This document shows, in pieces, positions 5 to 24,268 of a stretch of 64,000 nt of DNA. Every line of letters begins with the position of its first letter. The first letter of the stretch is position 1. Below the pieces are notes generated by a model. It did not search any database and was not told where the DNA came from. It saw nothing but the letters and a program-made list of their open reading frames with translations. A program made the position numbers and the translations under genes. The stretch lies in IMG/VR virus record IMGVR_UViG_3300025151_000019, positions 1 to 64,000 of that record; one strand, 5' to 3'. Source of the DNA: a virus.

Positions 5-679
5 ATGAATAAATCTTGGAGTGATATTTTAAAAAATATCCAAATTTCTGGACAGAGAACATCAAGTAGAGATTATGTAAAACCAGAAAAAGACGACGAC
101 GAATGTTGTGAATTGTTAGTGAAGGTAGTGGATGAGGCAACAAATTGGGAGGAAAATAATCGTTTTGGGGGAGGAATGGTAGGTGTCCCTACATTTTTAG
201 ACCCTATGGGTTATGTTCCTGATGATGATTTTCTTGAGATGATTTATGATTGGAAGGACAATATTACGGGAAAGCGAGATTTTTACAATGATATAATTAG
301 ACAGTTGAATGAGAAAGGAAATCCTGTAAGCGAATGGGAAAGACTAAAACAAATGTGGAAAGAAACGAGCAAATATGGTTTATCTCATAAGGCTCCTTGT
401 AAAGAAATAGTAGATGTTTTAGATAAATGGTCAGACAGAAATTTTGTTGGCTGGCAATTTTATGAAGAATGGGTTCATACATACCTATCAGATGAACCCG
501 AAAAAGCAAAAGAAAGAACTCAAAGAGAGTATGACGACTACATGGACTCATACAGAAAAGTTTGGATTGCTCTTCTACAAAACGACTGTGCCGATATTCT
601 AATCCAAAAGCCGTGGATGAATTACTCAATGAATAAAAGTTGGGAGGGTGTTCTTGAGTGCCGAACAAAAACAAAGTAA
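5..679 (+). CDS. Hypothetical head-region protein with N-terminal MNKSWSDILK motif and a second degenerate copy (MNKSWEGVLE) at the C-terminus
   Basis: 224-aa ORF with a CC...PC cysteine pattern also seen in ORF 1047..1475. Confidence 0.75.
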   Translation: MNKSWSDILKNIQISGQRTSSRDYVKPEKDDDECCELLVKVVDEATNWEENNRFGGGMVGVPTFLDPMGYVPDDDFLEMIYDWKDNITGKRDFYNDIIRQLNEKGNPVSEWERLKQMWKETSKYGLSHKAPCKEIVDVLDKWSDRNFVGWQFYEEWVHTYLSDEPEKAKERTQREYDDYMDSYRKVWIALLQNDCADILIQKPWMNYSMNKSWEGVLECRTKTK

Positions 680-789
680 GAAAACCCATTAAACGCAAAT
701 CTGGAGAACCGAGTCAGAAAAGCGAAAAACGCAGACCCAACAAACCAAATCACAAAAGAAGAAATAGTAATTCTTATAAAGAAGTTTAA
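658..789 (+). CDS. Small, highly basic protein (43 aa), not in ORF track
   Basis: GTG at 658 after GGGAGGGTG; manual translation MPNKNKVRKPIKRKSGEPSQKSEKRRPNKPNHKRRNSNSYKEV (16 K/R); fills a gap in a densely packed operon. Confidence 0.5.
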   Translation: MPNKNKVRKPIKRKSGEPSQKSEKRRPNKPNHKRRNSNSYKEV

Positions 790-810
790 TCGTCAAAGAT
801 ATGAGGGAAC

Positions 811-936
811 ATGATGTGCGAAATAATTAAAGAAGGTTCATCTACTGAAACTTGTCTATTAAGATGCACCAAAATTTCGGATATGTGTTATGCTTGTAGA
901 ATTCAGGAGGCAAGTCTTTGGACAAAACCCTATTAG
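811..936 (+). CDS. Cys-rich micro-protein (41 aa), not in ORF track
   Basis: Manual translation MMCEIIKEGSSTETCLLRCTKISDMCYACRIQEASLWTKPY; GAGGGA upstream. Confidence 0.45.
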   Translation: MMCEIIKEGSSTETCLLRCTKISDMCYACRIQEASLWTKPY

Positions 937-944
937 GTGATAAT

Positions 945-1046
945 ATGACGAGATGTAAATTACTTGATACATGGTTTGACCACGAATCTAAGAGATTAGA
1001 TAAGGAAGAGAAGAAGCAGAATAAAGATTTAATTACAGGTGAGTAA
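945..1046 (+). CDS. Micro-protein (33 aa), not in ORF track
   Basis: AGGTGA SD, then MTRCKLLDTWFDHESKRLDKEEKKQNKDLITGE; TAA abuts the next ATG at 1047. Confidence 0.6.
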   Translation: MTRCKLLDTWFDHESKRLDKEEKKQNKDLITGE

Positions 1047-1475
1047 ATGAAATTTGCATATTCTATGGAAGACGACGAAAATAGGTTTGAGCAATATTAT
1101 GACGAACCTAACACCGTTGCCTATGGTGATTGTTGTGCGGAAGCGAAGGATAGATTTATGCAAGTTGTTAAGGAACAATTAGCAGGTGCTTCAACAGATG
1201 TTGGACAAAGAGTTATTAATACCCTTAATGTTTATCAAATTCCATGTAAAGATTTTGCTGAACTATTAGAAAAGTTAAAGGATATTAGAGGTAGCGGTGA
1301 TGTTGTTGTTGCTGTTAATAATGTGTCCAGTAGATATTTTAGATTAGATAAACTTCCAACAAGTATGCTTCCAGCGATGGCTGAAGTAATTAAAAGGGCT
1401 TCAGTTGAATCCCTTACAGTTCTAAAAGAATGTAGGAGTATGAAAAAGAGTTGGGAAATTCTAAGGAGAAGATAA
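1047..1475 (+). CDS. Hypothetical protein with C-terminal MKKSWEILR motif
   Basis: 142-aa ORF, AGGTGAG SD. Confidence 0.75.
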   Translation: MKFAYSMEDDENRFEQYYDEPNTVAYGDCCAEAKDRFMQVVKEQLAGASTDVGQRVINTLNVYQIPCKDFAELLEKLKDIRGSGDVVVAVNNVSSRYFRLDKLPTSMLPAMAEVIKRASVESLTVLKECRSMKKSWEILRRR

Positions 1476-1476
1476 A

Positions 1477-1623
1477 ATGACTTGGCAAGACTATTTGAAA
1501 ACTATTTCAAAAGAAGATATTAGTGATTGGAAAGGTGCATTAAAGGCATTTATTAAAGAAGGTAGAAACTTGGGTATGCCTTTGGAAGTTATTAAATCCC
1601 TTGAAAAAATTGATGAGGAATAA
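1477..1623 (+). CDS. Micro-protein (48 aa) starting MTWQDYLK, not in ORF track
   Basis: Manual translation MTWQDYLKTISKEDISDWKGALKAFIKEGRNLGMPLEVIKSLEKIDEE; AGGAG upstream; fills the gap between flanking genes almost exactly. Confidence 0.7.
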   Translation: MTWQDYLKTISKEDISDWKGALKAFIKEGRNLGMPLEVIKSLEKIDEE

Positions 1624-1625
1624 AT

Positions 1626-2813
1626 ATGTGGGAAGATATTTTAAAAGCAGATGATGATGAATATGAATATGGTCGTCGTTATAGAAAACCTGATGGTTCT
1701 ACCTTTAGAGAAGGAAAGGGCTTTGACCAAGAAGATTATTCAAAGTTTAGAGGTTCAGGCACAGAAGAGATGCCTTCAACAGATTTAGCAAATTGGTTTG
1801 CTACTACTAATGATAGTTTTGAAGGATTAATGGAACAATTATCAGGAGGTATTGAAGGTGAAGGAGAATTACCCGAAGGAGGGCCTGGAGGTGGAATGCC
1901 CTACAAATACAAAGAAGATTCAGGGGCATTTAAAGAATTTAGAAAATCTTCTATGCAATTTGCTAAGGAACTAACTGAAAAAATGATTGAGGAATTTTTA
2001 GACTCTATTTTTCAACTTGGTGAAGATACAGGATTATCCAGCGAAGAGTTAAGCGAAATTATTGATGAAGGTAGTGTCTATAATTTAATGAACTCTAAGG
2101 CTTATCAAGAAGTAACTCAAGCAGGGCTTAAATCCTCTACTGAAATTATTAGTTCTATTTTAGACCAAGCATTTATTACCATTAGAAGAACAGCAGATAG
2201 AGATTCCTACCTTGACGAAGCACCCGAAGAAATGTCTCCTCAAGAGTTATTAGAAGCACTATCACAAATGGAATCAAATAACCTTTGGAAAGATTTATTT
2301 GAGTCAAAAACCAGTAGTCAAATAGATTCAATTATTAAAAATATTACTAACGATATGTTTAGTGATACTAAAATTGACCTTAACTTAGAACAAGAAGGTG
2401 GACAGGTTGAAATGTCTGCTATCAAGGATAACATCGCTCGTGCTGCTATGGAATATGTTAAAAATAATGACCTTATTGCCTTAATTGCTGGTAATGCTTT
2501 GCATCATTTTAATATTATCTATCTTTTAAGATTAGGAAAACTTGGACAAAAAGAAACAGGTGAATTTGAAGAAGAAATGGAAAATGCACCCAGAATTGAT
2601 TTTGAAGATACGGATGAGTTTGATGAAGACTTTAGAGAAGAATTTAAATCGCTTGATGAAGTTGAAAATTCGTGGCAATCAATTTTAAAGGTTGGAGGTC
2701 AAGCGGCAGTAGGAATGACTTCTAACGCAGGATTTACACCAGCCGTTCACAATATTACATATGGCGGTTGCGGTTGCGAAAAGAAAAAAAGCAAGTGCGG
2801 TTGTGATGATTGA
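1626..2813 (+). CDS. Acidic hypothetical protein with MWEDILK start, internal SWQSILK and Cys-rich tail
   Basis: 395-aa ORF ending GGCGCEKKKSKCGCDD. Confidence 0.8.
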   Translation: MWEDILKADDDEYEYGRRYRKPDGSTFREGKGFDQEDYSKFRGSGTEEMPSTDLANWFATTNDSFEGLMEQLSGGIEGEGELPEGGPGGGMPYKYKEDSGAFKEFRKSSMQFAKELTEKMIEEFLDSIFQLGEDTGLSSEELSEIIDEGSVYNLMNSKAYQEVTQAGLKSSTEIISSILDQAFITIRRTADRDSYLDEAPEEMSPQELLEALSQMESNNLWKDLFESKTSSQIDSIIKNITNDMFSDTKIDLNLEQEGGQVEMSAIKDNIARAAMEYVKNNDLIALIAGNALHHFNIIYLLRLGKLGQKETGEFEEEMENAPRIDFEDTDEFDEDFREEFKSLDEVENSWQSILKVGGQAAVGMTSNAGFTPAVHNITYGGCGCEKKKSKCGCDD

Positions 2814-4084: not shown

Positions 4085-4746
4085 TGTCAAGAAAGGTTAG
4101 AAAGTCCTGTAAGTTTTGTCAAGACCCAGACCGTGATATTCACGAAGAAGACATTCTCGCAGGTAATCTAACCTGTGATGAATTAGATAACCAAAAAGGC
4201 TGGTGGGCTGGAACCTCAAAAAAACATATGCAGAATCATTTAGGGGAATATCACGAAAGTTCCAATCCCCGTTGTCCTCTATGCACACATCCAAATAGAG
4301 CAGACTTAGAAATAGCCATTCACAATAATGAAATGAAGGTTGCTGAAGTGGCTGAAATTGTTGGTTGTTCCGAAGCCCAAGTTCAATTACACATTCTAAA
4401 ACACCTGAAACCAATTGTCCAACAACACGGAGCATTAGAAATTGCTCGTGCTGATTTAAACGAAGTGGACATTCTTTCTACAAATGTAAATACTTTGCAG
4501 AATAAGGTAAATGAGTTATTAGACAACACGGAGTTATCTACAAAACAAATTGATTCTCTTACAAAGTTGGCTAAAGAAATTAGAGAATCTCTAAAATATA
4601 TGCTTGAGTTTAAGGGACAGTTAGTTCATAAGAGAGAAGAAACAGTAGTTGTTCAGCAAGTGGAAATTATTCAAAAGGTTTTAATTGAAAAATATCCAGA
4701 AGTTTGGACAGAAATTAGAGATTCGGTAGCGGAGAGATTACAATGA
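4084..4746 (+). CDS. Protein with two CxxC...HxxxH repeats and a coiled coil; candidate terminase small subunit
   Basis: CKFC...HMQNH and CPLC...HILKH repeats, HTH-like segment and helical C-terminus; lies upstream of TerL. The TerS call is inference. Confidence 0.45.
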   Translation: MSRKVRKSCKFCQDPDRDIHEEDILAGNLTCDELDNQKGWWAGTSKKHMQNHLGEYHESSNPRCPLCTHPNRADLEIAIHNNEMKVAEVAEIVGCSEAQVQLHILKHLKPIVQQHGALEIARADLNEVDILSTNVNTLQNKVNELLDNTELSTKQIDSLTKLAKEIRESLKYMLEFKGQLVHKREETVVVQQVEIIQKVLIEKYPEVWTEIRDSVAERLQ

Positions 4747-5008
4747 GTTGGAAAAATATATTAAAACAAACTCCAGAAGAAGCAAAGGCAGATGAAGCGA
4801 GGCAATATGTCTTAAATGAAAATTTAAGACCCAAAACAGAATCATTAGGGCAAGCATTAAGAGAGTTTGCGAGAAGATTTCCTGCACATACTCCCCCATC
4901 ATTTGAAGAGGACATTAAAAGATTAGAAAATTTAGCGGCTTTGGGAGAGAGGATTAAGACACAAAGACAGGCTTTGGACCAACAAAAGGAGAGATTACAA
5001 TGAGTTGG
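4731..5008 (+). repeat. 21-bp exact direct repeat GGAGAGATTACAATGAGTTGG at 4731-4751 and 4988-5008
   Basis: Read directly; each copy encodes ...ERLQ* overlapping MSW... of the next gene. Confidence 0.9.
4743..5003 (+). CDS. Small protein with MSWKNILK start
   Basis: 86 aa, ATGA overlap with the upstream gene. Confidence 0.75.
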   Translation: MSWKNILKQTPEEAKADEARQYVLNENLRPKTESLGQALREFARRFPAHTPPSFEEDIKRLENLAALGERIKTQRQALDQQKERLQ

Positions 5009-5203
5009 GAACATATAATTAAAAAGGATTTAACTGATGAACAAAAAAAGGTAATTGATATGTATGCTGAGTCCCAAGATACAATTACTGTCCGAAAGGC
5101 TATGCAAGCAGTATTAAAGACTCTTGGATTTGTTAAGGGTTCAGTTGGCCGAAGAAGCGTTGAAAAATACCTTGAAGAAAATTACCCTGATAAGTTAGAA
5201 TAG
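5000..5203 (+). CDS. Small protein with MSWEHIIK start
   Basis: 67 aa, ATGA overlap. Confidence 0.75.
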   Translation: MSWEHIIKKDLTDEQKKVIDMYAESQDTITVRKAMQAVLKTLGFVKGSVGRRSVEKYLEENYPDKLE

Positions 5204-5211
5204 GTGATAAT

Positions 5212-5457
5212 ATGGCAAAAGACGATGTGCAAGATATTAGATTAGACATTATGGAAAAACAAATTCAAAAACACGATGAATTGATTGAAAGATTAAGTGA
5301 AAATCAGTTAGAGTTAAGTAGCAGATTAACTGAGTTAGCCTCATCAATAGATACTCAAAGCATGGTAATCGGACAGGGCTTTGATTTAATGAAAAAGGTT
5401 ATACTTGGATTAATGGCTATATTGACTACTATTGGTGCTGGAACACAGGTGATGTAA
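5212..5457 (+). CDS. Coiled-coil protein with C-terminal transmembrane helix
   Basis: AGGTGA SD; hydrophobic VILGLMAILTTIGAG. Confidence 0.7.
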   Translation: MAKDDVQDIRLDIMEKQIQKHDELIERLSENQLELSSRLTELASSIDTQSMVIGQGFDLMKKVILGLMAILTTIGAGTQVM

Positions 5458-5458
5458 A

Positions 5459-6084: not shown

Positions 6085-6094
6085 GGTGCATTAA

Positions 6095-8404
6095 ATGTTG
6101 ATTCTTAAATCAAAACTTGGTAATATTACCAGTAGGTTTAAGAAAAATAATCTTCCTACTAAGCAGGAAATTGAATCATTAACAGACGCAGAAAAAGAAC
6201 AGGCAGCAAAGTCTTTAGATACAGTTATTACTGATTTGCGTAGTCAATTAGAAAGCGCAAAAGCAGGCAAGCCTGTTCAGGATAAAGTAGTTAGTTCAAT
6301 GCTTAATAGTAGACTTAAGCCTGTATCATTAGAAGAAATTGAAAGAAGAATTGAAGAGTTAGAAAAAATTAATCAAGAATTTGGTTCTTCAGACCCTTTA
6401 CATGGACAAGAAAAATTTGGAATTAAATTTGATATTCCTATTGAGGGTAAGACAAATAAAGAATGGACTATTGAAACCTTAACACAATTATACAATGAGA
6501 TGGGTTCTAATCCATCTGTTGAACTTCTATATGCCCTGCATTATTTTATTGAGGAAAAAACAGGAGGGCAATTTACAGGGACTAAGGGAGGATGGGTTAG
6601 AACTATTGGTAGAGAAATTTCTAAAGACAATCCCGAACCTCTCAAAGAAATTTTTAAACTAAGATTAGACCCTGATGTTACTAACAATGTTGATAGAAAG
6701 GTTTTCAACTATTTTACTAATAAGTATAAATATAGCGTAACGGGTATTCAAGCAATAGAAGAAGAAGTTAATCAAGTTAGAGAAAGAACTGTTTTTAAAC
6801 CTGGGGAAAAACCTACTAAGAAACCTTTTATGGAAAGCAAAAAGGTTAGAAGAAAAACTAAAGGCGAAATGGTTATGGCTGAAAAGGGTTCTTTAGAACT
6901 TCTTTTAGCACCTAATATTGCTGATAAAATTAACCGAATTACCCTTACTGATTTAAGAGGTTTAATTGCAAATCTTAACAAAGCCAATGCAGGCGACGAT
7001 TTTATTTCTGCTTTAGAAGGTCCATCAATTGATATTGTTTATGAAATTATTAACGCAAAAGGAATTGATAATCTTGTTAGAGAAATTCAAGTTAGTAGAA
7101 AGGGAGAATCTACGGTTAAATCTAAAGGTAGATATTTGACATTGTGGGCAGTTAAATATATAGAAGGAAGAAGAAATGAAGACCCCTCCAGAACTATTAC
7201 AATAGGAGATACAGATATTCAATCCGTAAATGAAATGAAGCCCATCCTTTCAAAAACTTTAACTTCAAGGACACCCGAAGAACAAAGAGAAGTGAACAGT
7301 TATTTATCTAATATTAATAAAACTCTTGACTATCTTAGAAGACAAATAAATGAGGACAGACCCGCATTTGTTAAAAATTATAGGCAGTTTATTTCCCAAT
7401 CAAGACAAATTGAATCAAAAGTAGCAGATATTTCAGATGAGGAACTTAGCGGTTTAAGTGGAAAGGAGAGAAGAAATTATATCAAAAATTATCTGGAAAC
7501 ATCTGGATTTTCAAATATTGATAATACAGATTTAAAATACTATGTTGATTTTGATGATTATAAACAACTTGACTATGCTTTATCATCTGAAAACTTGTCT
7601 GGGTTATCAAGATTTCCAAGAAGTATTTTATCTCTTCTTGTATTTTCTTACATTAGTTCCGACGAAAATGATTATGAAACATTAGTAAATAAACTTAATA
7701 CCGTTAGCGGTGAGTTTAGACAATACATTCCTACGGGTAAATTATTTAGTAATAATAGTGAGTCTACTTTTGTAGACTCTATGAGAGCCTTACTAACCAT
7801 CTTCAAAAGATTATTAGGGAGAGAAGAATTGTCTCGCTACAATAACACCTTTGTTGATTTTGCCGACGAACTAAGAAATGCCCTTGATGAGTTATATGAG
7901 GAAATTCTTGAAGAGGCAAAGGAAGAAGGATTAGAAGAAGAAGATAGATTAGAAGTCTTGGAGTATGGTATTAAGGAGGATATTTTTGAAGAAGAAATTG
8001 GCGGCGTTGTTGATAAAGTAAAAGCCGAGTTAGATAATCTAAAGGAGGTCATTAACGATTTGTTGGCTATATTAGCAGAAAATATGATTAGCCTTCTAAT
8101 TACAAACATTTCTGACATTGCCGAAGATACAGAAGATAGATATAAGAGACAGGGGCTTAAAGTTAAGGGGCGGTCAGCAGGCATTAGGGAATATTTAATA
8201 AGCAAGAAATATTTACAAATACCAAGTCCTCCCCGTATTATCACCGAGGGCGACACTAAATATGTGATTTCGGAAGAATCTAAATCTGTCAATAATCTGG
8301 AAGATGAAGTAATTTATTACAAACGAGTTAAGAAGAACAAAAAAATAATTACTGACAAAACTCAAGAATACAAATTTAAATTAAGAGATTTACTGGGTGA
8401 TTAA
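6095..8404 (+). CDS. Large hypothetical protein (769 aa), possible internal virion protein
   Basis: Long ORF, GAGGTG SD, starts MLILK. Confidence 0.75.
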   Translation: MLILKSKLGNITSRFKKNNLPTKQEIESLTDAEKEQAAKSLDTVITDLRSQLESAKAGKPVQDKVVSSMLNSRLKPVSLEEIERRIEELEKINQEFGSSDPLHGQEKFGIKFDIPIEGKTNKEWTIETLTQLYNEMGSNPSVELLYALHYFIEEKTGGQFTGTKGGWVRTIGREISKDNPEPLKEIFKLRLDPDVTNNVDRKVFNYFTNKYKYSVTGIQAIEEEVNQVRERTVFKPGEKPTKKPFMESKKVRRKTKGEMVMAEKGSLELLLAPNIADKINRITLTDLRGLIANLNKANAGDDFISALEGPSIDIVYEIINAKGIDNLVREIQVSRKGESTVKSKGRYLTLWAVKYIEGRRNEDPSRTITIGDTDIQSVNEMKPILSKTLTSRTPEEQREVNSYLSNINKTLDYLRRQINEDRPAFVKNYRQFISQSRQIESKVADISDEELSGLSGKERRNYIKNYLETSGFSNIDNTDLKYYVDFDDYKQLDYALSSENLSGLSRFPRSILSLLVFSYISSDENDYETLVNKLNTVSGEFRQYIPTGKLFSNNSESTFVDSMRALLTIFKRLLGREELSRYNNTFVDFADELRNALDELYEEILEEAKEEGLEEEDRLEVLEYGIKEDIFEEEIGGVVDKVKAELDNLKEVINDLLAILAENMISLLITNISDIAEDTEDRYKRQGLKVKGRSAGIREYLISKKYLQIPSPPRIITEGDTKYVISEESKSVNNLEDEVIYYKRVKKNKKIITDKTQEYKFKLRDLLGD

Positions 8405-8405
8405 A

Positions 8406-11788: not shown

Positions 11789-11792
11789 TTAA

Positions 11793-12095
11793 ATGAGTTG
11801 GGAAAAAATATTAAAAAATAAGGAAATTGATGTAGGTAGACAATATGCTGAAGAAGATATGATTGAATTTGATTTAAAAAAACTATTTCAAAATCGTTAT
11901 TTAATAAGAGACAGTAGTAGGCAGCGAGCAAATATAGATGGTTCAATAGAATTCCATATTATTTTAAGAGAAATTAAAAGAAAATACCCCAATATGACAC
12001 CAGATAGACTTAGAAATTATTTAAATAAATTTGAATATTATGGTCCTACTGAAACAAGAGATGGAAGACGAGATGTTTATTTTACTATGAGGTAG
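11793..12095 (+). CDS. Small protein with MSWEKILK start
   Basis: 100 aa, GGTGA SD. Confidence 0.75.
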   Translation: MSWEKILKNKEIDVGRQYAEEDMIEFDLKKLFQNRYLIRDSSRQRANIDGSIEFHIILREIKRKYPNMTPDRLRNYLNKFEYYGPTETRDGRRDVYFTMR

Positions 12096-12104
12096 TGAGG
12101 AATA

Positions 12105-16544: not shown

Positions 16545-16545
16545 A

Positions 16546-16767
16546 ATGAACTGGGAAAATATTAAGAAAGAAATTAGAAGAAAACCTCCTACTAAAGTAG
16601 CGGGTGGTGCAGACCAAGAATTAGAAGAAACCATGTCAGAAGACAATAGAGAACTAATTGCTAATACAAGAAGAAGCACTTTACAGGCAATTTATAAAAT
16701 TTTAAAGGATATGGGTGAAGAAGAACTTGTTAAAATTTTAGAAGAAAGACTTAAGGGGATGGAATAA
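16546..16767 (+). CDS. Small protein with MNWENIKK start
   Basis: ATG 16546 immediately after the portal stop. Confidence 0.7.
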   Translation: MNWENIKKEIRRKPPTKVAGGADQELEETMSEDNRELIANTRRSTLQAIYKILKDMGEEELVKILEERLKGME

Positions 16768-16992: not shown

Positions 16993-16994
16993 TT

Positions 16995-19379
16995 ATGTCT
17001 TGGCAACTCATTCTAAAAGAAATTCCATTTAAAGTTAGGGATTTCCGAGCCATTGATAAAAAGGCGAAGAAGATTTGGAATGATGGAGGGCGTAAGGAAG
17101 AATTATCTAAAATTATTGTTAGATTAATTAGAGAAAAATACAATACTTCTGATGAAGAATTAATGGAAGATTTTAAAAAGTATTTAGAAACATTATCAGG
17201 GTATGCTCAAACCTCAAGAGTTAGAAGTAAGCAAAAGTATGATAGGTTTGAAGAAAGAAAGCCGTTATCACCACAAACAGACCCTAATTATCAACAAACA
17301 ATTAGGGAACTTGATAAGAGAGATGAAATTGTTGATGAATTAACAACATTGTTTGGAACAATTTTAGCACAAGACACTTCTACTCCTGATGAGGAAATTA
17401 TTCGCCAGTTTGATAAATTTAAAGATAAACTTGAAAGAGAGGAAAAGAGAAGAGAATTGAAAGACACCACTCCTAAGAAAAGGCGCAGAAAAACTAAACC
17501 TAAAGTAAAAACAGGAAAACTTGATTCTTTTGAAGACTCTTTTCCTAAAAGTGCACAAATGTTTAGAGAGTGGGTTGAATCTTCTTATCTTTCCATTTCG
17601 TTTTCAAAATTAAATAGATTGCTCAGTTTGGTTGGCTCTCCTACTATTAGTAATGATGAAACTATTGGTAGATTAAAGAAATTTATTAAAGATGAAAAAT
17701 TGAGCAATAAAGATAAAACTGCTCTAACCGCTATTGCTGACCAAATGGTAAAGGAGAATAATGAAAAACCAAGAAGCAACAGAAGATTATCTGGTAATGT
17801 CGTTCAAGCAAGAGCATTAGGATTAGATATTGCTAAGAGAAGTAGTATGAACAAAACCAATTTAGTGATTAGATTTGGTGATGATAGAAAAATAGAAATT
17901 AAAGGAAAACAAAGAAATTTCTTAGATAATTTTGAAAGATTAGATTTAACTAATGATAGTTTTTATAATAATCCAAATACCAGAGATATTTTTGAATATT
18001 GGGTAAAGGAATCTGGGTATACAGGTTCTGCTGAAAAATTTATTAAATTAGATGCTTTAGAAAAAAGCAAATATATTAAAAATATTATGAGAAATATTCC
18101 AGAATATCCTACAAATGTTATTAAAGTTGGTCTTTTGTATAGAGATATGTTTGAAGATAATCAAGCAGGACTTATTATTGATAAGGAAAAAGCCCCTGAA
18201 GAATTTGCTTATTTTCTTCAAGGTTTGAGAGATGGACTTATGGGTGGTAAATCGGCAAGAACGGCATTTGATTTTAACATTCTCAAGAAATTTAACAATC
18301 GTATTTTACCTCAACTTATTGATGCTATTAAGAGAGGTGTTTTCGTTGATGCAGAAGGAGAGCGTCAATTTAGATTAGGTCCTCCTGTTTCTAAATTAAT
18401 GAACAGGTTAAGTAAAGACCAAGAAGATAAAAGCGAAATTATTTCTGTTATTGGAGATGTTATCCGAGGGCAAAATATTTCAAATAAATATCAAGGTTCA
18501 GATAAAGATACTCTTGCTAAAATTGAATCAGATATTAGAGACCAATTAAAAGAAAAGGTTGCTGGTAAAACGGTAGCCTCATATTTACTTTCCACATTTA
18601 CTAAATTGTATAAAAAGGAAGGTATTTTAAGTAGTATTCTGAATGCCAAAACTGTTATTCCTGTTGAATATCTTAAACCTTCTGATGTGCCTGAAAAAGA
18701 AAGTCCTATGGGTAAAAAGCCTAAATATATACCCGACCCTAATAAAAAGGTGAAACCTCCAAAAGACCCTCCAAAAGCAGGTAAAAAATTATTTGAATGG
18801 GTTGATAAAGAAACTGAAAGACTTCAAGCAATTTCAGATGATAAAGAAAATGATATAACCTACACCGAAGAAGATATTCATAGAATAGTGGGTTGGAAAA
18901 AAGGAACGGTTAAAGAAATAAAACGCGGACCTACTGGAGAAATAATTCGTGATAAAGATGGTAATGCCGTTGAAGTGGAAAGAGAAAAATACATTAAATA
19001 TAATCCTAAAGAGGAGACAAAAAAATCTCTTGACAATCTATTGGTAGCCATCGGTGAAGAAGATGAAATTATTATCAAAGAGGATATTGGTCTTATCCTT
19101 GAGTCCCTTGACAAAAAGCAGAAGAAAAAAGTTAAGGCAATTTTAAATATCGCAGACCCCACAGAATACTTTGGACACGATTTCCTCAAGTTATCCGAAC
19201 TGATTCGTTTGTTGAAAACATTAGGCGTTGTAAAGGGCGACAAAAAGTTAAACAAAAAGATTTTGAGATATGACGAAGAAAATGTGAAGGTAGTAAAGTT
19301 GGCCGCAAGACTAAGAAAGGATTATGAAAGACTTTACGATGATTTGAGAGAAATGATATACCCTAAGAGTGGTGAATAA
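16995..19379 (+). CDS. Large hypothetical protein (794 aa) with MSWQLILK start
   Basis: Long ORF with basic and Pro-rich patches. Confidence 0.8.
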   Translation: MSWQLILKEIPFKVRDFRAIDKKAKKIWNDGGRKEELSKIIVRLIREKYNTSDEELMEDFKKYLETLSGYAQTSRVRSKQKYDRFEERKPLSPQTDPNYQQTIRELDKRDEIVDELTTLFGTILAQDTSTPDEEIIRQFDKFKDKLEREEKRRELKDTTPKKRRRKTKPKVKTGKLDSFEDSFPKSAQMFREWVESSYLSISFSKLNRLLSLVGSPTISNDETIGRLKKFIKDEKLSNKDKTALTAIADQMVKENNEKPRSNRRLSGNVVQARALGLDIAKRSSMNKTNLVIRFGDDRKIEIKGKQRNFLDNFERLDLTNDSFYNNPNTRDIFEYWVKESGYTGSAEKFIKLDALEKSKYIKNIMRNIPEYPTNVIKVGLLYRDMFEDNQAGLIIDKEKAPEEFAYFLQGLRDGLMGGKSARTAFDFNILKKFNNRILPQLIDAIKRGVFVDAEGERQFRLGPPVSKLMNRLSKDQEDKSEIISVIGDVIRGQNISNKYQGSDKDTLAKIESDIRDQLKEKVAGKTVASYLLSTFTKLYKKEGILSSILNAKTVIPVEYLKPSDVPEKESPMGKKPKYIPDPNKKVKPPKDPPKAGKKLFEWVDKETERLQAISDDKENDITYTEEDIHRIVGWKKGTVKEIKRGPTGEIIRDKDGNAVEVEREKYIKYNPKEETKKSLDNLLVAIGEEDEIIIKEDIGLILESLDKKQKKKVKAILNIADPTEYFGHDFLKLSELIRLLKTLGVVKGDKKLNKKILRYDEENVKVVKLAARLRKDYERLYDDLREMIYPKSGE

Positions 19380-19380
19380 A

Positions 19381-19608
19381 ATGGATGAAGAATTGACATT
19401 ATTATTGAAAGAATTAGTAGAGAGAGTCAAGACCTTAGAAACAACCGTCTTTGATAGAGACAATGTGCTAATGAAGTCTGGTCTTGTAAAAGTTGAGAGC
19501 CAAGCACCGTCTATTCAAACGGCGGGAAGAATCCCATCAGCCGATACAATCGCAAAGATGGATTGGAAGGATATTGACGAACTTGTTGTTAGATTAAGTG
19601 GTGAGTAA
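19381..19608 (+). CDS. Small scaffold-like protein ending IAKMDWKDIDELV
   Basis: C-terminus resembles the prohead protease/scaffold C-terminus. Confidence 0.7.
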   Translation: MDEELTLLLKELVERVKTLETTVFDRDNVLMKSGLVKVESQAPSIQTAGRIPSADTIAKMDWKDIDELVVRLSGE

Positions 19609-19609
19609 A

Positions 19610-20242: not shown

Positions 20243-20251
20243 GGTGTTTAA

Positions 20252-22990
20252 TTGCCTCCAGAAACGGGTAGGATTGACCCTTTATCAAGGTCATTAAGAA
20301 GTCTTTATGATAAGGTTAGAGTTGCATATTTAAGTGCAAGAGAAAGACCTAAGGATTACAAAGACGAATGGAATAAAGTCATTGAAGAAATTCGTGATAA
20401 TTGGGATAGCCCTAACCCTATTGGTGATTTATTAAGAGATGAATTATCCGAATCGTTAATTTATAGCGAAGAGGTAAAAGACCCTCAAGGTGCTAAAGCA
20501 AAAAGAGTTTATCAAAATATTAAGGAAGTTCAAGAACAGACCTCATTAAGTAAAGACCCGTTTAGAAAGAAATTTGGTGAAAAATTACCAAAGTTACTGC
20601 TTAACAATACTCAAGTATATGCTATGTTTTTGCATTGGGCATATAGAGCAGGTCGTGGTGCTTTAGATGGATGGGATGAAGTAGGAGATTTAAAGGATGA
20701 TTTTACAGAAGGTTATGTCGGTTTAGATTTAACAGATGGAGAATTGTTTAGATGGCTTCAGAAAAATTATGGCGACGATGTTGATGTTAAAAGGTTAAAG
20801 CGTAAAATGCAACCAGCAAGAGAAATGCTTTACGAGGTTTATACAAAGGAAAATAGTGCTTCTTCTTGGCAGGAATTAACAGATACTAAGAGAATTTTAA
20901 AACAGGAAAAAATTATTACTGTTAATCAAATTAGATATATGACTGATGATGGTTATAAAAAAGTAAATGTTAATCATATTTTAACATATGAAGATTTAAA
21001 TTTAAATGAAGAATCTTCCGTTGATGAAATAGAAGATGCTATTTTAGATTATTTATCAGGTGTTGAGCCTTATTTAGTTGATGAATTTAATTATACTATC
21101 GGTAGTCAAGGCGACCCAGATTTTTCTACTAAGAATGCTATGCTTAAGGAGGACAAGGAATTAAACGATTTTATTATTCCCAACAAACCTATGTATCGCA
21201 TCTTTGAAATTGACGATATGAAAGAAATTAAGGGCTTTTCAGGAGATTATGTTGTCCAAGAAAAGTATGACGGTATGCGTATTCAAATTCACAAGAATAA
21301 GGAAATTAAAATTTATTCTTTTAACCAAAGAGATATTACCAGAAAGTTTGACAAACAAGTAGAACTTATGCGTAATGATGATTTCCCTGAATGTATTTTA
21401 GATGCCGAAGTTGTTCTTTATGAAAATGATGAACCACTACATAGAGCAGATACTATTTCATACATTAATTCTAAGAAAGACGATTCCGCCTTTGAATTAA
21501 GAGTTCATGTGTTTGATATTATTCGTCTTAACGGAGAACACATTTGGAAGAACAAATTAGAAGAAAGACTTCAAACCTTAATGGGTAATTTTAACAAAGT
21601 TTCTCATAGACAATTACAATTTCCTACAAAATCCAATACCAGATTTGCAGACTCATTAGAGGACATTGAAGAATACGCTATGGAAATTATGAAAAATCCT
21701 ACATCCGAAGGGGTAATTATTAAAGATGCTAAGTCTTCATATATTGTAGGTAAGAAGAAAAATCCAAAGTGGGTCAAATGGAAAAAATTTGTTGATTTGG
21801 ATTTATTAATTTTAGAGGTTAGAAAGAACAAAAATGGAACATTTAGTTATACATTGGGTGCTGGACCTTTAGGAGATGAAGAGTATAAACCCGTTGTTCG
21901 TTACAAAAATAAAGATTATCTAAATGTTGGTAAGGCTCTTAATACTAAAATTAAATCGGAAGAGGGTAATATCATCCGAGTTAAGGTTGATGAAGTTAAG
22001 AAAACAAAAAAGGGTTTCTCAATTTATAGTGCTAAGGTTATTGAAAAGCCCGAAGTTACTGAGCCAGAAAAAATTATTACCCTTGAGTTTTTATCTAAAG
22101 ACAATAAAAAATCTGCATCTGATTATGCAATTGAAGCCCTTACAAAATCATATTCAATCACAGATAATGTTCACGGTGTTGTAGATTTAAACACATCCTA
22201 TGATACAGAAGGATTTGTTTTATCAGGATTTTTACAAAATAATTTAATGGCTAAAAATGCTATGATAGATATTGATTTGTGGAAACAAGAACTTGCTCAA
22301 ATTTACAAAAAAGATAGTGGTAAATTAATGAGTATTATTTCTGAAATTGTATATGAGGGTGAAATTACAAAACAGGACTTAATTAAGAAATTAAAAGAAA
22401 AGGCACCTGATATTATTAAGAGAATTTTTTCTGATGGGGATATTGAAAAGGGCTTGGCTAAATATATTAAAGAAAGAGGTGAAGCCTTTGGTATTTTATA
22501 CAATAAAGAGAGGCAGAAGTTTTATCATGACGATAAAACATTAGTCAAAGACCCAGAAAATATCGGAAAGATGGAAGATAATACCTATGAAATTTGGAGA
22601 AGAGAGGACGGAGATTTAAATTTTATTTATCAAATTAAAGAAAAAACATTTGCGTGGCGCATTGAGCAGGATAAAATTGAGGATATGTATGAATTGTTCG
22701 GAAAGGCTGAACGATTTTTGGCTGAATATGATAAAGAACCACAGAAGGATAAGAAGGTTGATGAGGGAACAATTAAAATTGGTTCTCAAAGAGATGGCTA
22801 TCACGAATATTTCCTAAAGGGTAAAATGTATTCGGGTAAGATTCATTTCCGAATTGTTAAAATTATGGAAGAAGATAAGTGGATTGTCTTTACTGGATAT
22901 AAAGAAGAGCCAACAGACAAAGATAGTGATGAAGGATTGTGGGATATTTCGGAAGATAAATATATAAATATTACATTTTCTGAAGAATAA
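20252..22990 (+). CDS. lig: Multidomain ATP-dependent DNA ligase with N-terminal extension and C-terminal LigD phosphoesterase-like domain
   Basis: Motif I EKYDG, III ILDAEVV, IIIa VFDII, IV EGVIIK, V WVKWK, then OB domain; TTG start after GAGGTG. Confidence 0.88.
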   Translation: MPPETGRIDPLSRSLRSLYDKVRVAYLSARERPKDYKDEWNKVIEEIRDNWDSPNPIGDLLRDELSESLIYSEEVKDPQGAKAKRVYQNIKEVQEQTSLSKDPFRKKFGEKLPKLLLNNTQVYAMFLHWAYRAGRGALDGWDEVGDLKDDFTEGYVGLDLTDGELFRWLQKNYGDDVDVKRLKRKMQPAREMLYEVYTKENSASSWQELTDTKRILKQEKIITVNQIRYMTDDGYKKVNVNHILTYEDLNLNEESSVDEIEDAILDYLSGVEPYLVDEFNYTIGSQGDPDFSTKNAMLKEDKELNDFIIPNKPMYRIFEIDDMKEIKGFSGDYVVQEKYDGMRIQIHKNKEIKIYSFNQRDITRKFDKQVELMRNDDFPECILDAEVVLYENDEPLHRADTISYINSKKDDSAFELRVHVFDIIRLNGEHIWKNKLEERLQTLMGNFNKVSHRQLQFPTKSNTRFADSLEDIEEYAMEIMKNPTSEGVIIKDAKSSYIVGKKKNPKWVKWKKFVDLDLLILEVRKNKNGTFSYTLGAGPLGDEEYKPVVRYKNKDYLNVGKALNTKIKSEEGNIIRVKVDEVKKTKKGFSIYSAKVIEKPEVTEPEKIITLEFLSKDNKKSASDYAIEALTKSYSITDNVHGVVDLNTSYDTEGFVLSGFLQNNLMAKNAMIDIDLWKQELAQIYKKDSGKLMSIISEIVYEGEITKQDLIKKLKEKAPDIIKRIFSDGDIEKGLAKYIKERGEAFGILYNKERQKFYHDDKTLVKDPENIGKMEDNTYEIWRREDGDLNFIYQIKEKTFAWRIEQDKIEDMYELFGKAERFLAEYDKEPQKDKKVDEGTIKIGSQRDGYHEYFLKGKMYSGKIHFRIVKIMEEDKWIVFTGYKEEPTDKDSDEGLWDISEDKYINITFSEE

Positions 22991-22999
22991 CCCTATTCC

Positions 23000-23010
23000 T
23001 TTATATAATA
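23000..23010 (+). promoter_or_regulatory. Putative archaeal TATA box for the protease-capsid operon
   Basis: TTTATATAATA 20-30 nt upstream of ATG 23030, which has no SD (leaderless spacing). Confidence 0.5.
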
Positions 23011-23029
23011 GTTAAACAGATGTATTAAC

Positions 23030-24268
23030 ATGACTCTTAGGGTAAAGCCGATTCGTCTGGGAAACAAACCCTCTTCAGGTTCGGAATTAGTTATTCTTAA
23101 GGGAACAGGAAAGGATATGGTTATTGCTGGATATGCATCCGTGGATGTAGTAGATAAGCAAAACGATTTAATTACATTAGAAGCACTAAGAGATGCTTCG
23201 GACAAATTTATGAAGAGTGATTATAAGAATGTAATGATTACTCATTCAAATGTGCAGGTGGGAGAAGTTATTGACACCTATACAGATACAAAAGGCAATG
23301 TTCTAAAAACGGGCGTTGATGATACAGGATTCTTTGTTGTTATCAAAATGAGGAACGACATTGAGAAAGCGAAGGAGGTTAGCCGTGATATTAGAAGAGG
23401 CAAACTTCGCTCTTTCAGCATCGGTGGACAGGCTATTAACAAGCACAATGTTCACGACCCCGATATTGGAACATACAAAGAAATAGATAAATTAGAACTC
23501 CACGAAATCACTATTTGTGAAGAAGGGATTAACCCTGAAGCCAAATTTGAGATTGTGAAAGAAAACAAAAAAGGAAGTGAAACTATGACTGACGAAATTA
23601 GTAAGGCTTTGGCCGAATTTGAAGACCTCGTTTCTCAACTACGAAATCAAACGATTTTGAAGGATGATTCAGACGATGAAAAGATGTATGCCGACAAAGA
23701 AAAGATGGAAGACGACGATGAGGAAAACATGGAATACAAGGCTGAAGACGACGATGAAGAGATGATGGATGATACCGAAGAAAAGGCGATTGATTCCACC
23801 GTTTATGGACACAATGCAACGGGACAAAAAATGGGTGAGGCTAACCTTACGGGTCGTTATGATTCGGAATTTAGCCAATTCCTTGCCCGAAAGTCCGAAC
23901 AAATTCAAACGCTTGACCTTTCCGATGAAAATATCGCAAAGGCTTATGCTCAATTCAAGGCCGAAAAGGAAGAAGAGAGAGCATATGATGTTATCAAGGA
24001 ACAATTTGAGGCTCGCTATCAGGCTGAATTAGCAACTGAGGCAAACGCTATTGCAAAGGAGAACTATGATGCACACGCTGAAGTGGCCGCATTAAAGAAC
24101 GAATTTGCACAACTGCGAAAGTCGCTTAACTCCCATAAGGAAGTTATTGCAAAGCAGGCTGTCCCAACCACGCAACCAGCAATTAGTGAAGATGTTATTG
24201 CTAAGATGAACAACCTTCACGAAATGTCTTGGGATGAAATTAACGAATTGGTGCGTGAACTACAATAA
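23030..24268 (+). CDS. HK97-type prohead protease fused to scaffold domain
   Basis: IAGYASVDVVDKQND, His, SFSIGG, ELHEITIC..G.NPEA; acidic coiled-coil C-terminal half; directly upstream of MCP. Confidence 0.92.
   Translation: MTLRVKPIRLGNKPSSGSELVILKGTGKDMVIAGYASVDVVDKQNDLITLEALRDASDKFMKSDYKNVMITHSNVQVGEVIDTYTDTKGNVLKTGVDDTGFFVVIKMRNDIEKAKEVSRDIRRGKLRSFSIGGQAINKHNVHDPDIGTYKEIDKLELHEITICEEGINPEAKFEIVKENKKGSETMTDEISKALAEFEDLVSQLRNQTILKDDSDDEKMYADKEKMEDDDEENMEYKAEDDDEEMMDDTEEKAIDSTVYGHNATGQKMGEANLTGRYDSEFSQFLARKSEQIQTLDLSDENIAKAYAQFKAEKEEERAYDVIKEQFEARYQAELATEANAIAKENYDAHAEVAALKNEFAQLRKSLNSHKEVIAKQAVPTTQPAISEDVIAKMNNLHEMSWDEINELVRELQ

What the first reader, a model, noticed from the sequence alone, without database searches (positions are those of the whole stretch)
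5..24268. Shared MSWxxILK peptide on about a dozen unrelated head-region proteins: candidate capsid-loading and maturation tag
Seen at N-termini: MNKSWSDILK (5), MTWQDYLK (1477), MWEDILK (1626), MSWKNILK (4743), MSWEHIIK (5000), MSWEKILK (11793), MNWENIKK (16546), MSWQLILK (16995). Seen internally or at C-termini: MNKSWEGVLE (629), MKKSWEILR (1440), NSWQSILK (~2670), MKKAWEILK (11528). Reduced forms: MLILK (6095), MVLIYK (13504). The rest of these proteins (48-794 aa) shares no obvious similarity. N-terminal copies occur only upstream of MCP, never in tail or replication genes. Established: T4 internal proteins use a short N-terminal capsid-targeting sequence that the prohead protease removes, and the HK97 protease cuts after Lys. 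Inference: this is a portable tag that binds cargo to the procapsid and is clipped after Lys, letting the virus load a variable set of proteins for injection into its archaeal host. I know of no description of such a tag in archaeal tailed viruses.
Basis: partly seen in the sequence, partly recalled or inferred. Interest (0 to 1): 0.92.

Follow-up and report, generated by a model that had tools for sequence, protein, structure and literature searches.

The report
Shared eight-residue tag on magrovirus proteins
About a quarter of the genes of this uncultured marine archaeal virus and its relatives start with the same eight residues (M-S-W-x-x-I-L-K) on otherwise unrelated soluble proteins; this is most likely a removable address label that loads cargo into the capsid, and no paper in the searched library contains the motif.

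Summary
All 14 peptides sit at the stated coordinates. The window is the first 64 kb of a 95.6-kb magrovirus genome. Genome-wide, 30 genes start with [M-x]-W-x-x-[I/L]-[L/I]-K, all on one strand, from 82.7 kb across the contig end to 17 kb. None lies in the tail or replication modules.

In related IMG/VR contigs (TerL 59-99% identical), 480 of 1,943 unique proteins carry the tag, against about 1 expected. They fall into about 250 BLAST-unrelated families. None has a transmembrane segment. Prokaryote genomes hold the exact coding pattern only at chance level.

Selection acts on the protein, and information content falls to background right after the Lys.

Indirect support for a capsid-loading, Lys-clipped tag:
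- The protease-scaffold C-terminus carries a conserved MSW-x-E-[I/V] motif.
- The capsid protein has one conserved hydrophobic-hydrophobic-Lys site, with Lys28 invariant.
- Pooled tagged proteins avoid Lys, relative to Arg, two residues after a hydrophobic residue (odds ratio 0.66). Untagged proteins do not (0.95).

Capsid loading itself is untested; confidence is 0.45. The closest analogue is the T4 capsid-targeting sequence. First-stage notes had already flagged the tag in this genome's other window, and Lys sites in another genome.

The parts
5..34 (+). N-terminal tag MNKSWSDILK of gene 5-679 (224 aa). This gene belongs to the paralogue family whose tag continues as NIQISSQR.
   Evidence: seven further paralogues at 83.8-89.6 kb of the same genome
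629..658 (+). Tag-like peptide MNKSWEGVLE near the C-terminus of gene 5-679. It ends in Glu, not Lys.
   Evidence: near match only
1440..1466 (+). Tag-like peptide MKKSWEILR at the C-terminus of gene 1047-1475. The Trp-to-Ile spacing is one residue shorter than in the tag.
   Evidence: near match only
1477..1500 (+). N-terminal tag MTWQDYLK of gene 1477-1623 (48 aa)
1626..1646 (+). N-terminal tag MWEDILK of gene 1626-2813 (395 aa)
2667..2690 (+). Internal tag NSWQSILK, 46 residues before the end of gene 1626-2813, followed by a Cys-rich tail
4743..4766 (+). N-terminal tag MSWKNILK of gene 4743-5003 (86 aa). The 21 bases spanning the ribosome-binding site and start are repeated exactly before gene 5000.
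   Evidence: no homologue in relatives with TerL 91-93% identical
5000..5023 (+). N-terminal tag MSWEHIIK of gene 5000-5203 (67 aa)
6095..6109 (+). Degenerate tag MLILK of gene 6095-8404 (769 aa)
   Evidence: orthologues start MSWISILK or MNWKLILK; this copy lacks three residues
11528..11554 (+). Internal tag MKKAWEILK in gene 10922-11788, at the junction with a C-terminal Cys-rich (zinc-ribbon-like) module
   Evidence: the same tag plus module occurs after KKSWEDILK in L150:5449
11793..11816 (+). N-terminal tag MSWEKILK of gene 11793-12095 (100 aa), directly upstream of the large terminase gene
16546..16569 (+). N-terminal tag MNWENIKK of gene 16546-16767 (73 aa), directly after the portal gene
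   Evidence: relatives have MNWQDILK or MKWEDILK genes at this position
16995..17018 (+). N-terminal tag MSWQLILK of the conserved post-portal gene 16995-19379 (794 aa)
   Evidence: AlphaFold2 gives residues 1-12 pLDDT below 50, with a short helix at 3-7
19549..19587 (+). C-terminal IAK-MDWKDIDELV segment of the conserved 75-aa gene 19381-19608. It resembles the scaffold C-terminus and the tag.
   Evidence: the gene is conserved at 38-83% identity in relatives
23030..24268 (+). Prohead serine protease (Peptidase_S78, residues 29-179) fused to a scaffold-like C-terminal half. This is the candidate enzyme that removes the tag.
   Evidence: Pfam E = 3.9e-11
23090..23104 (+). Conserved V-I-L-K|G site (Lys24) just before the protease domain. 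A second conserved site, E-I-V-K|E (Lys177), lies at 23549-23563 at the domain's end.
   Evidence: 16-sequence alignment; the Lys and the two preceding hydrophobic positions are fully conserved
24197..24253 (+). Scaffold C-terminal segment: I-A-K-M, six residues, then M-S-W-D-E-I-N-E-L-V. This tag-like motif is the presumed capsid-docking helix.
   Evidence: E/N-M/L-S/T-W-x-E-[I/V/L/A] is conserved in orthologues of 53-93% identity
24355..24369 (+). Capsid protein site S-L-L-K28|G. It follows a conserved N-terminal segment (TI.DLE.ATYG).
   Evidence: Lys28 is invariant in 25 orthologues; it is the only conserved hydrophobic-hydrophobic-Lys site in the capsid protein

Best explanation
The eight residues M-[S/N/T]-W-x-x-I-L-K are a portable address label for procapsid cargo, combined with a cleavage site.

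Proposed mechanism:
1. Trp, Ile and Leu form one face of a short, flexible amphipathic helix.
2. This helix docks soluble cargo proteins inside the assembling procapsid. It would use the same site as the scaffold's C-terminal MSW-x-E-[I/V] helix.
3. The HK97-type prohead protease then cuts after the Lys. The same hydrophobic-x-Lys rule would remove the first 28 residues of the capsid protein and dismantle the scaffold.
4. The cargo is a fast-changing set of about 30 mostly small proteins per genome. It stays in the head and would enter the host with the DNA.

Shown: the tag exists; it is selected at the protein level; it is portable between termini and between protein families; it is confined to late-strand soluble proteins; the same short motifs recur in the scaffold and the capsid protein; and tagged proteins avoid extra hydrophobic-x-Lys motifs.

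Inferred: docking, cleavage, packaging and injection.
For: 1. Scale and specificity.
- 30 of 127 genes here are tagged. All are on the + strand from 82.7 kb across the contig end to 17 kb. None is in the tail or replication modules.
- Across relatives, 480 of 1,943 proteins are tagged against about 1 expected.
- 83 IMG/VR stretches hold the exact MSWEDILK coding pattern. The 596-Gb prokaryote genome set holds 4, which is about chance.

2. Protein-level selection.
- Ile, Leu and Lys codons in the tag are used at background frequencies.
- Information content is 3-6.7 bits at Trp, Ile, Leu and Lys. It falls to 0.3 or less from the residue after Lys.

3. Portability.
- Tagged proteins form 254 unrelated body clusters.
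- Homologues of the untagged gene 2813 carry the tag at the C-terminus, internally or at the N-terminus. Six proteins have the Trp exactly 8 residues from the C-terminus.

4. Cargo-like properties.
- 0 of 479 tagged proteins have a transmembrane segment, against 70 of 1,044 untagged same-strand proteins (p = 2e-12).
- Small tagged genes have few or no homologues even in relatives with TerL 91-93% identical, while untagged neighbours are conserved.
- Some tagged proteins are strongly basic. Among 150 representatives there is one pentapeptide-repeat match and one weak SAM-lyase match, both of kinds known as anti-restriction proteins.

5. Link to the assembly machinery.
- An S78 protease-scaffold fusion is present.
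- Its C-terminal MSW-x-E-[I/V] motif is conserved down to 53% identity.
- A conserved 75-aa gene ends the same way.
- Capsid protein Lys28 is invariant after two hydrophobic residues.
- HK97 gp5 is cut at F-N-K|S.

6. A test of a prediction.
- In 210 cluster representatives of tagged proteins, Lys is under-used relative to Arg only when I, L, V or F sits two residues before it. The odds ratio is 0.66 (bootstrap 95% CI 0.58-0.77, p = 1e-8).
- No effect appears at any other offset from -6 to +4.
- 225 untagged representatives give 0.95 (0.84-1.08).
- The effect holds in every length class.

7. Structure. AlphaFold2 places the tag of gene 16995 as a short, low-confidence helix.
Against: - There is no virion proteome, no N-terminal sequence and no experiment. 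The virus is uncultured.
- Thirty cargo species per genome far exceeds the few T4 internal proteins that share its targeting sequence (three by my recollection).
- Many tagged genes lie in an accessory block far from the head genes and could equally be early or host-takeover genes.
- Some orthologues of the tagged post-portal protein have a different N-terminus, so the tag is not obligatory for that protein.
- A tagged gene sits where a small terminase subunit is usually encoded, and no small terminase was identified. A tagged terminase subunit would not fit the model.
- The avoidance of hydrophobic-x-Lys is a pooled signal. It is not resolvable in this genome alone (odds ratio 0.94). It would also fit recognition by a factor other than the prohead protease.
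- The Ser codon before Trp is AGT in 90% of cases and the next codon prefers GAA or AAA. Some nucleotide-level or shared-ancestry effect therefore exists.
- The structure prediction of the capsid protein failed (pLDDT 33). The position of Lys28 relative to the fold is unknown.
Confidence: 0.45

Rival explanations
1. The tag is a docking motif for some other common partner in the infected cell. Candidates are a viral or host hub protein, a chaperone, or the virus's own ubiquitin-like system, since W-x-x-I matches the core of Atg8-type interaction motifs. In this reading it has nothing to do with the capsid and is not cleaved.
For: - It is a short, amphipathic, flexible peptide that works at either terminus or internally, as linear docking motifs do.
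- The genome encodes a ThiF/E1-like protein. First-stage notes report a ubiquitin-like protein and a JAB protease nearby.
- Most tagged genes are not in the head module.
Against: - It does not explain the sharp loss of information right after Lys.
- It does not explain the matching conserved Lys site in the capsid protein, or the MSW motif at the scaffold C-terminus.
- Avoiding extra hydrophobic-x-Lys motifs is expected for a destructive protease more than for a binding partner.
- No partner was identified.
Confidence: 0.2
2. The tag is a leader peptide removed by a Lys-specific protease (the prohead protease or a host enzyme). It would activate, time or stabilise effector proteins in the cytoplasm, without packaging them.
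For: - The information boundary falls at Lys.
- Tagged proteins avoid hydrophobic-x-Lys.
- Internal copies sit at domain junctions and are often preceded by a second hydrophobic-x-Lys, as in a polyprotein.
Against: - Prohead proteases of this family are generally taken to act inside the procapsid (general knowledge, not tested here).
- An eight-residue leader is unlikely to mask activity in more than 250 unrelated folds.
- The resemblance to the scaffold's terminal motif is left unexplained.
Confidence: 0.12
3. The tag is mainly a by-product of how genes are gained. In this reading, new cassettes are joined by recombination at a shared stretch covering the ribosome-binding site, the start codon and the first codons. 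That stretch would also favour translation initiation, so the peptide itself has little function.
For: - The Ser codon before Trp is AGT in 162 of 181 unbiased cases, against 26-36% background. The second codon is mostly A-N-T.
- The codon after Trp prefers GAA or AAA.
- An exact 21-base repeat flanks gene 4743.
- Tagged genes turn over quickly.
- Tagged genes have stronger ribosome-binding sites.
Against: - Synonymous sites of Ile, Leu and Lys are at background, so the copies share too little DNA identity for homologous recombination.
- Trp, Ile, Leu and Lys are kept at the protein level.
- The motif is also kept at C-termini and inside proteins, where translation initiation is irrelevant.
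- It does not explain the absence of membrane proteins or the Lys avoidance.
- The AGT bias is explained well enough by common descent of the tag, with slow switching between the two Ser codon classes.
Confidence: 0.1
4. All tagged proteins are very diverged paralogues of one ancestral gene. The tag is simply the best-conserved structural helix of that family.
For: - The Ser codon bias points to common descent of the tag.
- Real paralogue families exist: eight members share about 25 residues after the tag.
Against: - Bodies range from 40 to 830 residues, with basic, acidic, Cys-rich and enzyme-like types.
- The tag moves between N-terminus, C-terminus and domain junctions within one family.
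- The one model made shows the tag as a short, low-confidence helix, with no sign that it is part of the fold.
Confidence: 0.08

Closest known systems
Capsid-targeting sequence (CTS) of phage T4 internal proteins (IPI, IPII, IPIII and the variable IP locus of T-even phages)
   Same: - A short N-terminal peptide shared by otherwise diverse proteins.
[quoted passage not shown]
- The T4 sequence targets foreign proteins into the head and permits proteolytic processing (title of Mullaney and Black 1996, as cited in PMC3012670 and PMC9024508).
- Here too the tag ends in a motif that recurs in the capsid protein and scaffold, and the tagged genes turn over quickly.
   Different: - No sequence similarity. 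By my recollection, which was not checked here, the T4 peptide is about 10 residues and ends in Glu.
- The protease family differs. By my recollection T4 gp21 is not an S78 enzyme; here the protease matches Peptidase_S78.
- The apparent cleavage rule is hydrophobic-x-Lys.
- About 30 tagged genes per genome, against a handful in T4.
- The tag is also used at C-termini and at domain junctions.
- The host is archaeal.
- Nothing has been shown experimentally.
N-terminal packaging signal of phage P1 DarB and the Dar anti-restriction cargo system
   Same: An N-terminal stretch directs an anti-restriction protein into the capsid, and the first 30 residues suffice for a reporter protein (PMC9024508). 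The cargo is thought to enter the cell on infection.
   Different: In P1 the signal is described for one protein, and loading is stepwise through helper proteins (PMC9024508). It is not a motif shared by dozens of genes, and no shared cleavage motif is described.
Propeptide-bearing head and ejection proteins of giant phages (SPN3US, phiKZ, 201phi2-1)
   Same: Many head-internal proteins, including paralogue families, are made as precursors. The prohead protease trims them at a common three-residue motif (PMC10052503, PMC7411985).
   Different: Those propeptides are 20-254 residues long (PMC10052503). They are not reported to share one conserved sequence, and cleavage follows a motif ending in Glu. 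Here the leader is a fixed eight-residue motif ending in Lys.
HK97 prohead protease and capsid maturation
   Same: The protease family matches (Peptidase_S78). HK97 gp5 is cut after Lys103 in the context F-N-K|S, which is hydrophobic-x-Lys.
   Different: I know of no cargo proteins carrying a shared tag in HK97. Here the protease is fused to a long scaffold domain, and the capsid protein would lose only 28 residues.

Membership tests
T4-type capsid-targeting sequence system | A short N-terminal peptide shared by proteins that are otherwise unrelated | tested here: met
   30 genes in this genome; 479 unique tagged proteins in 254 BLAST-unrelated clusters
T4-type capsid-targeting sequence system | The peptide ends at a site for the virus's own prohead protease, the same kind of site as in the capsid protein | tested here: inconclusive
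   The tag ends in I-L-K with an information drop after Lys. Capsid protein L-L-K28 is invariant. Tagged bodies avoid hydrophobic-x-Lys. No cleavage data exist.
T4-type capsid-targeting sequence system | The virus builds a procapsid with a scaffold or core and a maturation protease | tested here: met
   Peptidase_S78 domain fused to a scaffold-like half, directly upstream of an HK97-fold capsid gene
T4-type capsid-targeting sequence system | Tagged proteins are present inside virions and are delivered to the host | not testable with these tools
   The virus is uncultured and no proteome was available. Indirect only: no membrane proteins among 479 tagged proteins.
T4-type capsid-targeting sequence system | The tag alone is sufficient to load a foreign protein | not testable with these tools
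   This needs expression experiments. Natural shuffling of the tag between families and termini is suggestive only.
T4-type capsid-targeting sequence system | Sequence homology to the T4 peptide or its protease family | not tested
   The T4 peptide was not fetched, so no comparison was run. From memory it is unlike W-x-x-I-L-K. The protease here matches Peptidase_S78. This is treated as an analogue, not a member.
Sec, Tat or class III signal peptides | A hydrophobic core of about 10-20 residues after the N-terminus | tested here: not met
   The tag is 8 residues with three hydrophobic positions. 0 of 479 tagged proteins have a 19-residue window with mean hydropathy of 1.7 or more.
Atg8-type interaction motif (W/F/Y-x-x-L/I/V) read by a ubiquitin-like protein | An aromatic-x-x-aliphatic core, plus an Atg8-like reader | tested here: inconclusive
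   The core W-x-x-I is present by definition. Only a ThiF/E1-like gene was confirmed. The reported ubiquitin-like gene gave no Pfam match. No binding test is possible.
Magroviruses (viruses of Marine Group II archaea, groups A/B) | A genome of about 100 kb with a head-tail structural module, an archaeal-type replication module, a second DNA ligase and a LAGLIDADG gene inside the structural module | tested here: met
   95.6-kb contig. TerL, portal, S78 protease, capsid and tail tube genes. PolB, RFC, ERCC4 and a replicative ligase. A ligase at 20252-22990. A GFIDSDG motif in gene 13504. These match the description in PMC5434244.

The most novel reading that the evidence does not exclude
A clade of abundant ocean archaeal viruses uses one eight-residue code to send an open-ended, rapidly exchanged repertoire of proteins into a common destination. 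There are about 30 such proteins per genome and more than 250 families across the clade. If the destination is the capsid, this could be the largest set of co-injected effector proteins I am aware of for any tailed virus. It would also be a ready-made tag for loading foreign proteins. If the destination is something else, such as a virus-made compartment or the virus's own ubiquitin-like machinery, it would be a new kind of viral protein-sorting signal in archaea.
Probability: 0.55. Interest if true: 0.9.

Novelty: new variant of a known kind. Interest (0 to 1): 0.82.

Why it matters
Magroviruses are described as widespread and abundant in surface oceans (PMC5434244), yet most of their genes have no known function.

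A single tag that marks about a quarter of the genes gives these ORFans a common handle. It predicts which proteins travel with the DNA into Marine Group II archaea, and these are likely to include counter-defence factors.

It also gives a concrete, testable cleavage rule for an archaeal virus protease. And it suggests that capsid-loading tags like that of T4 arose independently in archaeal viruses, on a much larger scale.

Neither the searched paper library nor the two magrovirus papers checked mention the motif.

Tried and rejected
- Chance: rejected by shuffling.
- Host origin: rejected. Only 4 exact coding matches occur in 596 Gb of prokaryote genomes, none with an array of tags.
- A purely RNA- or DNA-level element: rejected, because Ile, Leu and Lys codons are at background and the motif also occurs at C-termini and inside proteins. 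The AGT bias at the Ser codon is real, and I read it as shared ancestry of the tag.
- Function by homology led nowhere. Pfam and PHROGs found nothing for the tagged proteins of this genome. Among 150 tagged representatives there were only scattered single hits. The ESM Atlas gave nothing usable.
- Gene 16995: a profile search found 122 relatives, all unnamed. The AlphaFold2 model (pLDDT 67) had no significant match by Foldseek. VIA-align matched only generic helical hairpins at Z of 8 or less.
- AlphaFold2 of the capsid protein with 25 orthologues failed (pLDDT 33). The place of Lys28 in the fold could not be checked.
- The 'phages' collection held no close relative (TerL 29% identity or less).
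- The SUMO-like consensus (hydrophobic-K-x-acidic) was considered and dropped, because the residue two after Lys is not consistently acidic.
- The Lys-avoidance signal was sought in this genome alone and is not detectable there.
Full report
**What the window is.** The window is the first 64 kb of a 95,639-bp contig whose ends overlap by about 100 bp. On the + strand, Pfam identifies a large terminase (12105-13520), a portal (14901-16544), an ATP-dependent DNA ligase (20252-22990), a Peptidase_S78 prohead protease fused to a scaffold-like half (23030-24268), an HK97-type capsid protein (24283-25608) and a tail tube protein. On the - strand it identifies family B DNA polymerase, RFC, ERCC4 and PD-(D/E)XK nucleases, a ThiF/E1-like protein, a ribonucleotide reductase and a second ligase. 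Gene 13504-14904 carries a LAGLIDADG-type motif. This is the published magrovirus layout, including the second ligase and the homing-endonuclease gene inside the structural module (PMC5434244).

**The observation.** A scan of the whole genome shows the window holds only part of the phenomenon. Thirty genes begin with [M-x]-W-x-x-[I/L]-[L/I]-K. All are on the + strand, running from 82,722 across the contig end to 16,995. Every called gene between 82.7 and 95.6 kb is tagged. None is tagged in the tail module (25.6-48 kb) or on the - strand.

**Conservation of the tag system.** Eighty loci around terminase genes of 69-99% identity carry tags, always on the terminase strand. A scan of IMG/VR for the exact coding pattern of MSWEDILK gave 83 stretches, usually with several further tags beside them. 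Five such records, searched whole, have terminases 59-62% identical to this one. The same pattern occurs only 4 times in 596 Gb of prokaryote genomes, with no neighbouring tags. Pooling everything, 480 of 1,943 unique proteins are tagged against 1.06 +/- 0.8 expected by shuffling.

**Anatomy of the tag.** The Trp is residue 3 in 408 of 479 cases and residue 2 in 39. The consensus is M, S (53%; also N or T), W, E/K/Q/F, D/N, I (82%), L (74%), K (98%). Information content against background is 6.7 bits at Trp and 3.0, 2.6 and 3.3 bits at Ile, Leu and Lys. It is 0.3 bits or less at every position after Lys, so the motif has a sharp C-terminal edge.

**Codon evidence.** Codons for Ile, Leu and Lys in the tag are used at roughly genome frequencies, so the constraint is on the protein. 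The Ser codon is an exception. It is AGT in 162 of 181 cases not forced by my search pattern, against 26-36% elsewhere, and the second codon is mostly A-N-T. I read this as common descent of the tag. Ser, Asn and Thr are one step apart within A-N-T, whereas a switch to TCN needs two steps. A translation-initiation effect cannot be excluded.

**Portability.** With the tag removed, 479 tagged proteins form 254 clusters at BLAST E of 1e-4 or better, with lengths of 41-829 residues. The tag also occurs away from N-termini. Six proteins have the Trp exactly eight residues from the C-terminus. Internal copies number 68 against 18.5 expected, although many of these are start codons called too far upstream. 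Homologues of the untagged window gene 2813-4084 carry the tag at the C-terminus, near it, or at the N-terminus. A 'tag plus Cys-rich module' found inside window gene 10922-11788 recurs in another protein. Internal copies tend to read hydrophobic-x-K-S-W-x-x-I-L-K; in nine of nine K-[S/Q]-W cases the residue four before Trp is hydrophobic. Window gene 6095 (MLILK) is an orthologue of MSWISILK proteins that has lost three residues. Some orthologues of the tagged post-portal protein have a different N-terminus, or a 22-residue extension before a Tyr-for-Trp version of the tag.

**What tagged proteins are like.** They are short (median 111 residues) but reach 830 residues. No tagged protein has a predicted membrane segment (0 of 479), against 70 of 1,044 untagged proteins on the same strand (p = 2e-12). 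They are almost all ORFans. Among 150 representatives there were only single hits to pentapeptide repeats, PAP2, DUF6321, AbiJ_NTD4, a weak SAM-lyase match and a few unnamed PHROGs. The small tagged genes in the window have few or no homologues even in relatives whose terminase is 91-93% identical, while untagged neighbours are conserved. In the AlphaFold2 model of gene 16995 (pLDDT 67), residues 1-12 score below 50, with a five-residue helix at 3-7. The confident core matched nothing known.

**Links to the assembly machinery.** Following a lead from a first-stage note, I aligned protease-scaffold orthologues. Their C-termini keep E/N-M/L-S/T-W-x-E-[I/V/L/A] down to 53% identity. In most it is preceded by hydrophobic-hydrophobic-Lys-Met. 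A conserved 75-residue gene (19381-19608) ends the same way. In the capsid protein the only conserved hydrophobic-hydrophobic-Lys site is L-L-K28. Lys28 is invariant in 25 orthologues, while the residues around the site vary in sequence and length. Similar conserved sites lie just before (Lys24) and at the end (Lys177) of the protease domain, and four more lie in the scaffold half. HK97 gp5 is cut at F-N-K|S, as read from the HK97 record.

**A test of the cleavage idea.** If tagged proteins share a compartment with a protease that cuts after hydrophobic-x-Lys, they should avoid that motif elsewhere in their sequence.
- Using one representative per cluster (210 tagged-only, 225 untagged-only), Lys is under-used relative to Arg in tagged bodies only when I, L, V, M or F lies two residues before it. 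The odds ratio is 0.66 (p = 1e-8, bootstrap 95% interval 0.58-0.77).
- At every other offset from -6 to +4 the ratio is 0.93-1.16.
- In untagged proteins the ratio is 0.95 (0.84-1.08); the difference has z = -3.9.
- The effect is carried by I, L, V and F, and it holds in all four length classes.
- Shuffling gives the same picture. In all unique proteins, [IL][IL]K is at 0.64 of expectation in tagged bodies and 1.20 in untagged ones. The same context followed by Arg, Glu or Asp is not depleted.
- With one representative per cluster the direction holds but is weaker, at 0.77 against 1.18.
- The signal is statistical. In this genome alone it is not visible (0.94).

**Interpretation.** The data fit a removable capsid-loading tag best, as set out in the best explanation. 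The nearest precedent is the T4 capsid-targeting sequence, which is shared by a diverse, fast-evolving set of injected anti-restriction proteins (PMC3012670). Related precedents are the P1 DarB N-terminal signal (PMC9024508) and the giant-phage propeptides (PMC10052503). This tag is an analogue, not a homologue: the sequence, the protease family, the cleavage rule, the scale and the host domain all differ. Packaging, cleavage and injection are not shown. Rival readings remain open: another docking partner, a cytoplasmic pro-peptide, or a by-product of cassette recombination. Confidence in the full model is 0.45.

**Novelty.** The two magrovirus papers I checked do not mention such a motif, and no paper in the searchable library contains its sequence. 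First-stage notes of this scan had flagged the same leader in the other window of this genome, and Lys sites in another genome. Those notes were unchecked.

Noticed in passing
genome 82,722-95,552 (outside the window; L081:2722-15552): An unbroken run of 23 genes, every one starting with the tag or a near variant such as MSWEDTLCK or MSWEDILQK. It includes several protamine-like Lys/Arg-rich and Cys-rich mini-proteins.
   Followed up: partly
window 5-679 and genome 83,832-89,600: A family of eight paralogues shares about 25 residues after the tag (W..ILKNIQISSQRTSSKDYV.PD). Their bodies are divergent, ranging from 167 to 806 residues.
   Followed up: partly
window 4731-4751 and 4988-5008: An exact 21-base direct repeat (GGAGAGATTACAATGAGTTGG) covers the ribosome-binding site and the first codons of two adjacent tagged genes. 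Recombination between the copies would delete gene 4743-5003.
   Followed up: partly
window 13504-14904: A LAGLIDADG-type gene (GFIDSDG motif) lies between terminase and portal and is conserved at 45-74% identity in relatives. It has 26 [ILVF]-x-Lys motifs against one [ILVF]-x-Arg. Its N-terminus, M-[V/E]-L-I-x-K, is conserved but has no Trp. Its presence in magrovirus structural modules is already published (PMC5434244).
   Followed up: partly
window 20252-22990 and genome 64,711-66,219: There are two ATP-dependent DNA ligases. One is a 912-residue protein embedded in the head module just before the protease. The other is in the replication module. This is a known magrovirus feature (PMC5434244). 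Whether the head-module ligase is packaged is open.
   Followed up: partly
window 16995-19379: The post-portal protein family has 122 representatives in the 1.84-billion-protein library. Its most conserved part is the last 100 or so residues, which also occur at the end of much shorter and differently built proteins.
   Followed up: partly
window 19381-19608: A conserved 75-residue gene has a C-terminus that copies the scaffold's terminal segment (IAK-M-x-W-x-D-I-x-E-L-V). It is possibly a second, small scaffold or a competitor for the same docking site.
   Followed up: partly
genome 68,561-69,127 (L082:4561-5127, - strand): A ThiF/E1-like gene is confirmed by Pfam. First-stage notes report a ubiquitin-like protein, a JAB protease and a candidate E2 nearby. 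The 70-residue and 200-residue candidates gave no Pfam match here.
   Followed up: partly
window 56543-57583 (- strand): A full-length IMP dehydrogenase / GMP reductase family gene (Pfam E = 5e-89) lies in the replication module.
   Followed up: no
L089 (IMG/VR record of 184,733 bp): This record holds two terminase copies about 90.5 kb apart, so it is probably a head-to-tail dimer assembly of a genome of about 92 kb rather than a larger virus.
   Followed up: partly
L220, L223, L225, L226, L229 (relatives with TerL about 70% identical): In this sub-lineage a protein of 946-1,024 residues sits between the portal and the post-portal gene. It starts M-(M)-I-I-K-K, and the post-portal protein is untagged. 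The protease still has F-[V/I]-I-L-K before its catalytic domain, and the capsid protein still has N-L-L-K.
   Followed up: no
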